Origin: a virus
Lineage: Duplodnaviria; Heunggongvirae; Uroviricota; Caudoviricetes
Length of the DNA stretch: 11,057 bases
Strand: one strand, 5' to 3'
IMG/VR virus record: IMGVR_UViG_2923360383_000006
A program made the position numbers and the translations under genes. Below are positions 5,279 to 5,507 of this stretch, in pieces (within the stretch, counting starts at the first letter, position 1; every line of letters starts with the position of its first letter). The notes under the pieces were generated by a model that ran no database searches, had not been told where the DNA came from, and worked only from the letters and a program-made list of their open reading frames with translations.

Positions 5279-5507
5279 CCTTCACCTGTTCACCTTTTGA
5301 TATTTTATCTTTTAATTCATAATGTTAAGGGGTGAACAGTTTCACAAAAACTATTCACCAACTGTTCACCACTGTTCACCCTTGAAGCTCAATAAACAAT
5401 CAAAAAGGTGAACAGTGAATAGTTTGGTGAACAGTTCATAAATAACTGTTCACCCTATAACATACTGATACAAAAGATATTTATGACAGGGTGAACAGTG
5501 GTGAACA
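5279..5507. repeat. Replication origin iteron array (octamer TGTTCACC, P4 ori/crr type)
   Basis: Nine perfect copies in ~220 bp: TGTTCACC at 5287, 5363, 5373, 5447 and the complement GGTGAACA at 5331, 5407, 5426, 5490, 5500, plus degenerate copies at 5281 and 5354. Several are in 10-bp-phased tandem pairs; an AT-rich stretch sits at 5295-5325. Chance expectation is about 0.01 copies. Confidence 0.8.

What the first reader, a model, noticed from the sequence alone, without database searches (positions are those of the whole stretch)
5279..5507. Dense array of nine perfect TGTTCACC octamers immediately downstream of the primase gene
This is the octamer I recall as the P4 ori/crr type I iteron bound by the alpha protein C-terminal domain. 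Copies occur in both orientations, partly as 10-bp-phased tandem pairs, with an AT-rich segment alongside. It defines the satellite origin and ties the 605-aa primase-helicase to P4 alpha-type initiation despite non-P4 packaging genes.
Basis: partly seen in the sequence, partly recalled or inferred. Interest (0 to 1): 0.55.

Follow-up and report, generated by a model that had tools for sequence, protein, structure and literature searches.

The report
Replication origin of an E. coli PICI
The repeat cluster is almost certainly the replication origin of a phage-parasitic island (a PICI) in E. coli; it uses the same 8-base binding site and site layout as the origin of satellite phage P4, which makes it an ordinary kind of element with an informative evolutionary link.

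Summary
There are nine perfect TGTTCACC copies at 5287-5507, against 0.37 expected in the whole window, and they start 15 nt after the stop codon of the 605-aa gene. Three degenerate copies bring the total to 12 sites. These form two mirror-image six-site modules, each with a 35-36 bp AT-rich spacer, and the sites are phased at about 10.6 bp.

The octamer is exactly the annotated "ori type 1 repeat" of phage P4. Each module reproduces the spacing and orientation pattern of the P4 ori, not that of the P4 crr.

The adjacent protein matches P4 alpha only over the helicase and the C-terminal winged-helix origin-binding domain (PDB 1KA8, E 1.5e-24). It lacks alpha's zinc-ribbon/Toprim primase domain, so "primase" is doubtful.

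The element is not P4-like. It is syntenic with EcCICFT073, a Gram-negative PICI whose pri-ori segment was shown experimentally to replicate. The EcCICFT073 ori has the same layout but a different iteron, TGTCTACC.

Across 80 related loci the iteron changes between lineages while the layout is kept. The change tracks a 30-residue "wing" segment of the binding domain.

Verdict: a new member of a known kind (a PICI Rep-iteron origin). Interest is moderate.

The parts
5279..5507 (.). Whole iteron array (candidate ori): 12 sites in two mirror-image modules, with the dyad centre near 5393
   Evidence: (inverted repeats I1 and I2)
5407..5507 (-). Module R (next to the Rep gene). Sites at 5500, 5490 | 5447 | 5426, 5414 (degenerate), 5407. 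In gene orientation the pattern is ++ [43] - [21] +++, the same as P4 ori 9406..9310
   Evidence: (alignable with P4 ori)
5279..5380 (+). Module L (far from the Rep gene), a mirror copy of module R. Sites at 5279 (degenerate), 5287 | 5331 | 5352 (degenerate), 5363, 5373
5455..5489 (.). AT-rich spacer of module R (26% GC), a candidate DNA-unwinding element. It begins with CTATAACATACTG, conserved with P4 ori CTTTAACTTACTG
   Evidence: the equivalent Rep-proximal spacer of EcCICFT073 is 23% GC
5295..5330 (.). AT-rich spacer of module L (17% GC), a second candidate unwinding element
5381..5406 (.). Central 26-bp spacer between the two triplets of iterons (27% GC). It contains the dyad axis
5522..7339 (-). 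Rep gene (605 aa from ATG 7339; the ORF is open from GTG 7354). RefSeq calls it 'DNA primase family protein'. It is an SF3 helicase-initiator homologous to P4 alpha aa 320-771
5561..5851 (-). C-terminal winged-helix origin-binding domain (aa 502-598 in 610-aa numbering), the inferred reader of the iterons
   Evidence: 1KA8, E 1.5e-24; Pox_D5 PF03288
5570..5659 (-). 'Wing' segment (aa 566-595, ...EYMKRKTKHGLRSNVTL...) that covaries with the iteron sequence among relatives
6041..6856 (-). D5_N domain (aa 167-296) and SF3 ATPase core (aa 330-438, Walker A GPGGSGKS)
   Evidence: (SaPI5 PriRep 7OLA, E 2.5e-10)
6920..7354 (-). N-terminal ~145-aa domain (phrog_2850). Toprim-like alpha/beta fold, but no Zn ribbon and no canonical acidic motifs. 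Function unknown
4570..5234 (-). Genes immediately downstream: an 81-aa protein (phrog_1231, 4989-5234) and an island-encoded SSB (4570-4992). They are likely replication accessory genes and are syntenic in EcCICFT073

Best explanation
The array is the replication origin of an EcCICFT073-family phage-inducible chromosomal island.

The adjacent 605-aa Rep is a self-loading SF3 helicase-initiator. Its C-terminal winged-helix domain is inferred to bind the (A)CTGTTCACC iterons. The 12 sites form two mirror-image modules of six. All sites lie on about the same face of the helix, and each module encloses a 35-36 bp AT-rich spacer.

Inferred mechanism: each module recruits one Rep hexamer (six binding domains for six sites). 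The AT-rich spacers melt, and two oppositely oriented helicases are loaded for bidirectional theta replication. The island's SSB coats the unwound DNA. Priming is probably done by host DnaG, because Rep lacks a recognisable primase active site.

The helicase, binding domain and ori together form a cassette of common descent with the P4 alpha/ori replicon. The rest of the island is unrelated to P4.

Shown here: the site sequence, layout and phasing; the homology of the binding domain; conservation of the layout; and iteron/wing covariation. Inferred: binding, melting site, double-hexamer loading and the source of primers.
For: 1. Enrichment and position: there are nine exact copies against 0.37 expected, starting 15 nt after the Rep stop codon.
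2. Same octamer as P4: it is identical to the annotated P4 ori type 1 repeat.
3. Same layout as P4 ori: each module has the P4 ori pattern ++[43]-[21/22]+++ and aligns with P4 ori, including the conserved TAAC..T..TG next to the lone inverted site.
4. Rep homology: Rep aa 502-598 matches the P4 alpha origin-binding domain 1KA8 (E 1.5e-24), and the helicase is 51% identical to alpha's.
5. Experimental precedent: the island is syntenic with EcCICFT073, whose pri-ori segment supports plasmid replication that depends on both rep and ori (PMC6092414). That ori has the same layout with TGTCTACC.
6. Conservation across relatives: in 80 related loci the most repeated 7- or 8-mer downstream of the gene is an iteron, and the layout is kept while the sequence switches (TGTTCACC, TGTCTACC, TCTCCACC, TGTCCGCC, TATACACC, TGTATACC, TGTTCATA).
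7. The switch tracks the wing: L007, L012 and L015 are 89-91% identical to the window Rep in the helicase and 82-85% in the helices of the binding domain, but only 40-43% in aa 566-595. They carry a 5-aa insertion there and use TGTCTACC. L077 and L079 are nearly identical over the aligned C-terminal 150 aa and differ at two wing residues (KERKNRGMVTN vs KERKTRGVVTN), among about five differences there, and have different iterons.
8. Phasing: 10.6-bp helical phasing of all 12 sites.
9. Melting sites: the AT-rich spacers are 17% and 26% GC.
10. No second cluster: there is no other TGTTCACC cluster in the window.
11. SaPI precedent: Rep winged-helix domains bind 6-12 iterons just downstream of rep, around an AT-rich centre, and are thought to load two hexamers (PMC9371898).
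Against: - Nothing was tested experimentally for this island. Binding, melting and initiation are inferred by homology and comparison.
- P4 itself needs two separated cis elements (ori and crr). A single locus being sufficient here rests on the EcCICFT073 experiment, which used a Rep only 49% identical and a different iteron.
- In EcCICFT073 only the Rep-proximal spacer is AT-rich; the distal one is 57% GC. Symmetric melting and double-hexamer loading are therefore not secure.
- L073 and L076 have near-identical wings but different iterons, so the wing is not the only determinant of specificity.
- The loci are related by descent, so the covariation counts are not independent events.
- Rep has no demonstrable primase, so the priming step is unknown.
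Confidence: 0.85

Rival explanations
1. The array is a crr-like cis-acting auxiliary site (an enhancer or handcuffing/copy-control site that Rep binds) rather than the place where replication starts. The true origin would lie elsewhere.
For: It occupies exactly the position of P4 crr, immediately downstream of the alpha-type gene. P4 crr also carries type I iterons and is annotated as a cis-required region for replication.
Against: - The site layout matches P4 ori, not crr. The crr unit is ++[43]---[14]+ in two direct 120-bp repeats.
- No second TGTTCACC cluster exists anywhere in the 11-kb island, even allowing one mismatch.
- The array contains its own AT-rich spacers.
- In EcCICFT073, the rep gene plus this one intergenic region suffices for plasmid maintenance (PMC6092414).
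Confidence: 0.06
2. The array is mainly a transcriptional element. It could be operator sites through which Rep or another protein controls the downstream 81-aa/SSB operon. Alternatively the long hairpin in the transcript could act as a terminator or RNase III processing site between rep and the downstream genes.
For: It fills the whole 287-bp gap between two co-oriented genes. As a single strand the region folds into one long hairpin (DNA z = -8.8, RNA z = -9.0).
Against: - No sigma-70-like promoter or intrinsic terminator is found in 4900-5700, and there is no Rfam family.
- The hairpin is an automatic consequence of the mirror-image modules.
- Between window and vB_KppS-Ant the spacers diverge without visibly keeping L/R complementarity, whereas the iterons and the motif next to the lone site are conserved as sequence.
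- The iteron sequence covaries with the Rep DNA-binding wing. That fits protein binding to duplex DNA.
- A secondary regulatory role for Rep binding is not excluded.
Confidence: 0.05
3. The array is a packaging (cos/pac) or recombination (att/arm-type) site rather than a replication element.
For: Satellites carry helper-phage packaging sites, and repeats are common at arm-type integrase sites.
Against: - The cos-like sequences lie elsewhere: there is a direct repeat at 1923-2016 and 4458-4551, similar to the ends of lambdoid phage genomes, with a lambda cosN-like GGGCGGCGACAG at 2008-2019.
- The array is 4 kb from the integrase and far from both ends of the island.
- The motif tracks Rep, not Int or TerS.
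Confidence: 0.02

Closest known systems
Phage P4 ori (NC_001609 9310-9413)
   Same: The octamer TGTTCACC is identical, and there are six sites per module. Orientation and spacing match (++ 10 | 43 | - 21/22 | +++). An AT-rich ~35-bp spacer starts with a conserved C.(T)TAAC.T(A)(C)TG. The initiator carries a homologous SF3 helicase and winged-helix domain.
   Different: P4 has one module, located about 2.3 kb upstream of alpha, beyond the start of the alpha operon. It is accompanied by three type II repeats, and replication also needs crr about 4.7 kb away. Here two modules lie in mirror image directly after the rep stop codon, there are no type II repeats and there is no second cluster. P4 alpha has a Zn-ribbon + Toprim primase domain, which is absent here.
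Phage P4 crr (NC_001609 4291-4590)
   Same: Same position, immediately downstream of the alpha-type gene. Same octamer, and two adjacent modules.
   Different: The crr modules are direct 120-bp repeats with the layout ++[43]---[14]+ and several degenerate sites. The window modules are inverted and have the ori-type layout.
EcCICFT073 pri-rep-ori (Gram-negative PICI; Fillol-Salom et al. 2018, PMC6092414)
   Same: Same island family and gene order: int, alpA-type HTH, YlcI, Icd-like, DUF4222, Rep, ori, small ORF, SSB, capsid genes, and two cos-like sites. The Rep N-terminal domain is the same (68% identity). The ori is in the same place with the same double mirror-image layout. The replicon was tested experimentally.
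   Different: The iteron is TGTCTACC/TATCTACC rather than TGTTCACC. The binding domain is only 34% identical, less than the 48% identity to P4 alpha's. Only one spacer is AT-rich. The morphogenesis module differs: separate capsid and decoration genes, against a ClpP-capsid fusion and a DUF1441 TerS-like gene here.
SaPI Rep/ori (self-loading helicases; PMC9371898)
   Same: Same logic: the initiator-helicase has a C-terminal winged helix, there are 6-12 iterons immediately 3' of rep arranged around an AT-rich region, and two hexamers are proposed to load. There is distant helicase homology (7OLA, E 2.5e-10).
   Different: The iterons are 5-6 bp with unrelated sequences, the host is Gram-positive, and the N-terminal domains differ.
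Dyad-symmetric origins of other SF3 initiators (SV40 large T antigen, papillomavirus E1) - comparison from general knowledge, not tested here
   Same: Short recognition sites sit in inverted arrangement with AT-rich flanks, serving head-to-head double hexamers of an SF3 helicase that carries its own origin-binding domain.
   Different: The binding-domain fold and site sequence are unrelated. The resemblance is an analogy only.

Membership tests
P4 alpha / type I iteron replicon | Clustered TGTTCACC octamers in both orientations | tested here: met
   Nine exact copies plus three degenerate ones. The P4 record annotates the same octamer as 'ori type 1 repeat'.
P4 alpha / type I iteron replicon | Initiator with an alpha-type SF3 helicase and a C-terminal winged-helix origin-binding domain | tested here: met
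   50% identity to alpha aa 320-771. 1KA8 match at E 1.5e-24. TIGR01613 scores 95.8 bits, below its curated cut-off of 108.7.
P4 alpha / type I iteron replicon | N-terminal DnaG-like primase (Zn ribbon + Toprim) in the same polypeptide | tested here: not met
   P4 alpha hits PF08273 and PF13362. The window protein's first 163 aa hit no Pfam family at E <= 1, and there is no BLAST match to alpha aa 1-319. hhalign of the N-terminal domain against the alpha primase region is not significant. The fold is Toprim-like, but no acidic motifs are visible.
P4 alpha / type I iteron replicon | Bipartite cis elements: ori plus a distant crr, and type II repeats beside ori | tested here: not met
   There is a single cluster and no type II repeats.
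P4 alpha / type I iteron replicon | Binding of the iterons by the initiator and iteron-dependent replication | not testable with these tools
   Only comparative support is available: covariation between iteron and wing.
P4-like satellite (element level) | Presence of sid, psu, delta and epsilon, and P4 gene order | tested here: not met
   tblastn of 13 annotated P4 proteins (all but the GeneMark-only P4p05) against the window finds only alpha aa 320-771. Gene content is given.
Gram-negative PICI, EcCICFT073 type | int at one end, an alpA-type regulator, and unidirectional transcription through rep into a morphogenesis/packaging module | tested here: met
   Pfam results and RefSeq annotation. 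Gene-by-gene synteny with EcCICFT073.
Gram-negative PICI, EcCICFT073 type | [quoted passage not shown] | tested here: met
   Same layout as the EcCICFT073 ori. The criterion is as stated in PMC6092414.
Gram-negative PICI, EcCICFT073 type | Carries helper-phage cos sequence(s) | tested here: inconclusive
   A 94-nt direct repeat at 1923-2016 and 4458-4551 (89% identity) resembles the ends of lambdoid phage genomes. There is a cosN-like 10/12 match at 2008-2019. It was not examined further.
Gram-negative PICI, EcCICFT073 type | Helper-phage-dependent induction, replication and high-frequency transfer | not testable with these tools
   This needs experiments.

The most novel reading that the evidence does not exclude
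This PICI lineage and P4-like satellites use the identical iteron, the same site layout and homologous binding domains (48% identity, with a conserved wing pattern K-R/K-x-T/S-K-x-G). Their initiators may therefore cross-recognise each other's origins. Two satellite families that parasitise different helpers (lambdoid versus P2-like) would then be coupled in the same cell, by cross-activation of replication, titration of initiator, or incompatibility. The repeated iteron/wing switches seen among relatives would then be escapes from such cross-talk. This array occurs in 593 of 5426 complete E. coli genomes, with up to 6 copies per genome, so co-residence is plausible.
Probability: 0.25. Interest if true: 0.6.

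Novelty: new member of a known kind. Interest (0 to 1): 0.38.

Why it matters
**Annotation.** The result annotates the replication origin of a PICI lineage present in about 11% of complete E. coli genomes. It also corrects the label of its initiator: a helicase-initiator without a recognisable primase, not a "DNA primase".

**Evolution.** A replicon cassette (SF3 helicase, winged-helix domain and a six-iteron ori module) is shared between P4 and PICIs, although these two satellite families have been argued to be independent. In P4 relatives from Xenorhabdus the ori-type module also sits directly downstream of the alpha gene. This suggests that P4's split ori/crr arrangement is the derived state.

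**Specificity.** The natural series of iteron switches maps to a 30-residue wing segment. In one case the switch accompanies only about five substitutions across the C-terminal 150 aa, two of them in the wing. This gives a ready-made, testable system for studying how winged-helix initiators change DNA specificity. It could also supply orthogonal Rep/ori pairs for engineering.

Full report
**1. The observation**

The window contains ten exact TGTTCACC octamers, against 0.37 expected (maximum 3 in 200 shuffles). Nine lie between 5287 and 5507, in both orientations. Allowing mismatches adds three in-register degenerate copies: CCTTCACC at 5279, TATTCACC at 5352 and TATTCACT at 5414. That makes 12 sites. 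All nine perfect copies share the longer core CTGTTCACC, and eight share ACTGTTCACC.

The genes of the window all run on the minus strand. The array fills the 287-bp gap between the stop codon of a 605/610-aa ORF (5522-7339/7354) and the next ORF (4989-5234). It begins 15 nt after the stop codon. The tandem pairs 5363/5373 and 5490/5500 are 10 bp apart.

Two AT-rich spacers lie inside the array: 5295-5330 (17% GC) and 5455-5489 (26% GC). The window as a whole is 48% GC. The centres of all 12 sites are phased with a best period of 10.6 bp (R = 0.86). Only 0.02-0.4% of random placements do as well. The tenth exact copy (6793, inside the gene) is absent from the closest phage-database relative and is consistent with chance.

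**2. Is it the P4 iteron?**

Yes. The RefSeq record of phage P4 (NC_001609) annotates 8-bp "ori type 1 repeats" in its rep_origin and in crr, which it describes as the "cis required region for replication". All six in ori and five of the ten in crr read TGTTCACC.

**3.

In P4 ori, read right to left, the six sites follow the pattern ++ (10 bp apart), a 43-bp step across an AT-rich spacer, one inverted site, a 22-bp step, then +++. The window array consists of two such six-site modules in mirror image:

- Module L: 5279, 5287 | 5331 | 5352, 5363, 5373.
- Module R: 5407, 5414, 5426 | 5447 | 5490, 5500.

The steps are 43-44 bp and 21 bp. Both modules align with P4 ori. The alignment includes a conserved motif next to the lone inverted site, TGTTCACCC.(T)TAAC.T..TG.

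The repeat finder independently reports the dyad: 56-nt arms 5306-5361 / 5424-5479, and 36-nt arms 5347-5382 / 5488-5523. As a single strand the region folds into one long hairpin (z = -8.8 for DNA, -9.0 for RNA). I read this hairpin as a consequence of the mirror duplication.

P4 crr lies where this array lies, just downstream of alpha. Its pattern is different: ++[43]---[14]+, in two direct 120-bp repeats. The array therefore has the position of crr but the architecture of ori, doubled. There is no second cluster in the island and there are no P4 type II repeats.

**4. The neighbouring protein**

It is 50% identical to P4 alpha over alpha residues 320-771 only.

- Pfam finds D5_N, the DUF5906 ATPase core and the C-terminal Pox_D5 domain.
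- Residues 502-598 match the solved P4 alpha origin-binding winged-helix domain 1KA8 (E 1.5e-24).
- The ATPase matches SaPI5 PriRep 7OLA (E 2.5e-10).
- P4 alpha's Zn-ribbon (PF08273) and Toprim (PF13362) domains have no counterpart. The first 163 residues hit no Pfam family even at E <= 1.

**5. What the element is**

tblastn of 13 annotated P4 proteins (all but the GeneMark-only P4p05) against the window finds only alpha 320-771. The window is 100% identical to a chromosomal island of avian and human E. coli strains, lying between tRNA-Ile/mug and nfeF.

Its gene order is: int, a 228-aa ORF, an alpA-type HTH, YlcI, Icd-like, DUF4222, Rep, array, an 81-aa ORF, SSB, a 68-aa ORF, a ClpP-capsid fusion, and a DUF1441 TerS-like gene. 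This is the order of EcCICFT073, the prototype Gram-negative PICI.

[quoted passage not shown] They showed that a pri-ori plasmid is maintained only with intact rep and ori (PMC6092414). I read the EcCICFT073 ori directly. It has the same double mirror-image pattern, built from TGTCTACC/TATCTACC instead of TGTTCACC. Its Rep shares the N-terminal domain (68% identity), but its binding domain is only 34% identical to the window's. The window's binding domain is closer to P4 alpha's, at 48%.

**6. Comparative test of "the C-terminal domain reads the iterons"**

A scan of one genome per species returned 80 loci with alpha-type helicases. Two protein architectures occur:

- Short forms (~585-610 aa) like the window's.
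- Long forms (~770-814 aa) that retain the P4 primase region.

In nearly all loci the most repeated 7- or 8-mer in the 330-500 bp after the stop codon (the span differed between scans) is an iteron. The spacing and orientation pattern is retained even where the sequence differs. The iteron classes found are:

| Iteron | Loci |
|---|---|
| TGTTCACC | most loci, including the window, vB_KppS-Ant, P4 and the Xenorhabdus long forms |
| TGTCTACC | L007, L012, L015, L020 |
| TCTCCACC | L018 |
| TGTCCGCC | L019 |
| TATACACC | L076 |
| TGTATACC | L077 |
| TGTTCATA | L079 |

The class tracks one segment of the binding domain. L007, L012 and L015 are 89-91% identical to the window Rep in the helicase and 82-85% in the helical part of the binding domain. 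That is as close as the TGTTCACC-class relatives. In residues 566-595 they are only 40-43% identical, and they carry a five-residue insertion there (KRKQCTRGPDKGRTISN against KRKTKHG-----LRSN). L077 and L079 are nearly identical over the aligned C-terminal 150 aa and differ at two wing residues (KERKNRGMVTN vs KERKTRGVVTN), among about five differences there, and use different iterons.

One exception stands out. L073 and L076 have similar wings but different iterons, so other residues also contribute. These lineages are related by descent, so the counts are not independent. Even so, several separate switches that preserve the layout are strong comparative evidence. They indicate that Rep's winged helix binds these sites and that the layout is under selection.

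**7. Mechanism**

*Shown here:*
- The sequence, number, orientation and phasing of the sites.
- Homology of the binding domain to a solved origin-binding domain.
- The same architecture in an experimentally validated relative.
- Covariation between iteron and wing.

*Inferred:*
- After AlpA-driven expression, Rep binds the two six-site modules. Six sites per module would match the six binding domains of one hexamer, and P4 ori also has six.
- The AT-rich spacers melt.
- Two oppositely oriented SF3 hexamers self-load for bidirectional replication. This has been proposed for SaPI Reps (PMC9371898), and P4 is known to replicate bidirectionally (my recollection of the P4 literature).
- The island's own SSB (4570-4992) would coat the unwound DNA.
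- Primers probably come from host DnaG. Rep lacks a recognisable primase site, and the EcCICFT073 replicon works in a helper-free laboratory strain.

*Uncertain:* whether both modules fire. In EcCICFT073 only the Rep-proximal spacer is AT-rich (23% against 57% GC).

**8. Rivals**

- **A crr-like auxiliary site with the origin elsewhere.** This is disfavoured by the ori-type layout, the internal AT-rich spacers, the absence of any second cluster and the EcCICFT073 experiment.
- **A transcriptional operator, terminator or RNA hairpin.** There is no support from promoter/terminator scans or Rfam. Spacer complementarity is not maintained between relatives. A secondary regulatory effect of Rep binding is not excluded.
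- **A packaging or att site.** This is excluded by location and by the cos-like repeats elsewhere.

**9. Novelty and verdict**

Iteron origins immediately 3' of PICI rep genes are known, and so are P4's type I iterons. This is a new member of a known kind. The following go beyond what I could find stated:

- One PICI Rep allele retains the exact P4 octamer and the P4 ori layout, although PICIs and P4 were argued to be independent, with only "distant homology" of Pri-Rep (PMC6092414).
- The origin is a dyad of two P4-ori-type modules.
- Iteron specificity switches map to the wing.
- The N-terminal domain is a Toprim-like module without catalytic motifs. It is also found fused to other ATPase types.

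I could not read Fig. 2a of PMC6092414, which may already show a TGTTCACC-type origin. The array is common: 593 of 5426 complete E. coli genomes carry it, with up to six copies per genome.

Interest is moderate (0.38). The most novel reading not excluded is cross-recognition between P4-like satellites and this PICI lineage through their shared iteron.

Noticed in passing
window 1923-2016 and 4458-4551 (also 2008-2019 and 4425-4437): There is a 94-nt direct repeat (89% identity), 2.5 kb apart. Both copies lie in stretches that match the genome ends of lambdoid phages (mEp460, HannyBb) at 86-92%. Copy 1 contains GGGCGGCGACAG, a 10/12 match to lambda cosN, and an IHF consensus site precedes copy 2. 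They look like the cos1/cos2 pair described for EcCICFT073 (PMC6092414).
   Followed up: partly
[not shown]
   Followed up: partly
window 2026-3939 (-) and 1284-1856 (-): The island encodes a 637-aa ClpP-protease/major-capsid fusion and a DUF1441 TerS-like protein. Short segments are about 80-94% identical at the DNA level to the head genes of lambdoid phages (cdtI, Tritos, mEp460). No portal or large terminase is present. This suggests helper-capsid mimicry or interference that differs from the EcCICFT073 module.
   Followed up: no
window 7336-7635 (-): A DUF4222 ORF overlaps the Rep start codon. It sits where P4 has ORF106 (a DUF5375 protein; the cnr copy-control gene, as I recall), directly upstream of alpha. 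The same DUF4222-Rep overlap occurs in EcCICFT073. It could be a Rep partner or regulator.
   Followed up: no
L073 vs L076; L080-L083: L073 (Zobellella) and L076 (Oceanisphaera) have near-identical wing segments but different iterons (ACTGTTCACC and ACTATACACC). Determinants outside the wing must therefore exist. The long alpha homologues of Pantoea and Ewingella (L080-L083) have no iteron cluster within 450 bp downstream of the gene.
   Followed up: no
L021-L071 (Xenorhabdus/Photorhabdus loci): The long, P4-alpha-like proteins (~813 aa) of these genera carry the ori-type module (++ 43 - 21 ++) directly downstream of the gene, i.e. in the crr position. Individual genomes hold several such loci, for example five in X. 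ehlersii. This suggests that P4's separated ori is a derived arrangement.
   Followed up: partly
E. coli genomes: The 286-bp array region is present at >=90% identity in nearly all of the 593 of 5426 complete E. coli genomes that carry it, with up to 6 copies in one genome and 2 copies on plasmids. Co-resident islands with identical iterons would share Rep specificity.
   Followed up: no
window 1-1000: About 1 kb at the tRNA-Ile-proximal end of the island has no annotated gene in RefSeq and no convincing ORF. The integrase is at the opposite end from the tRNA.
   Followed up: no
window 7955-8158 (-) and 8304-8486 (+): There is an Icd-like cell-division inhibitor gene and a divergently oriented YlcI/YnfO (DUF3950) gene between alpA and rep, as in EcCICFT073.
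   Followed up: no
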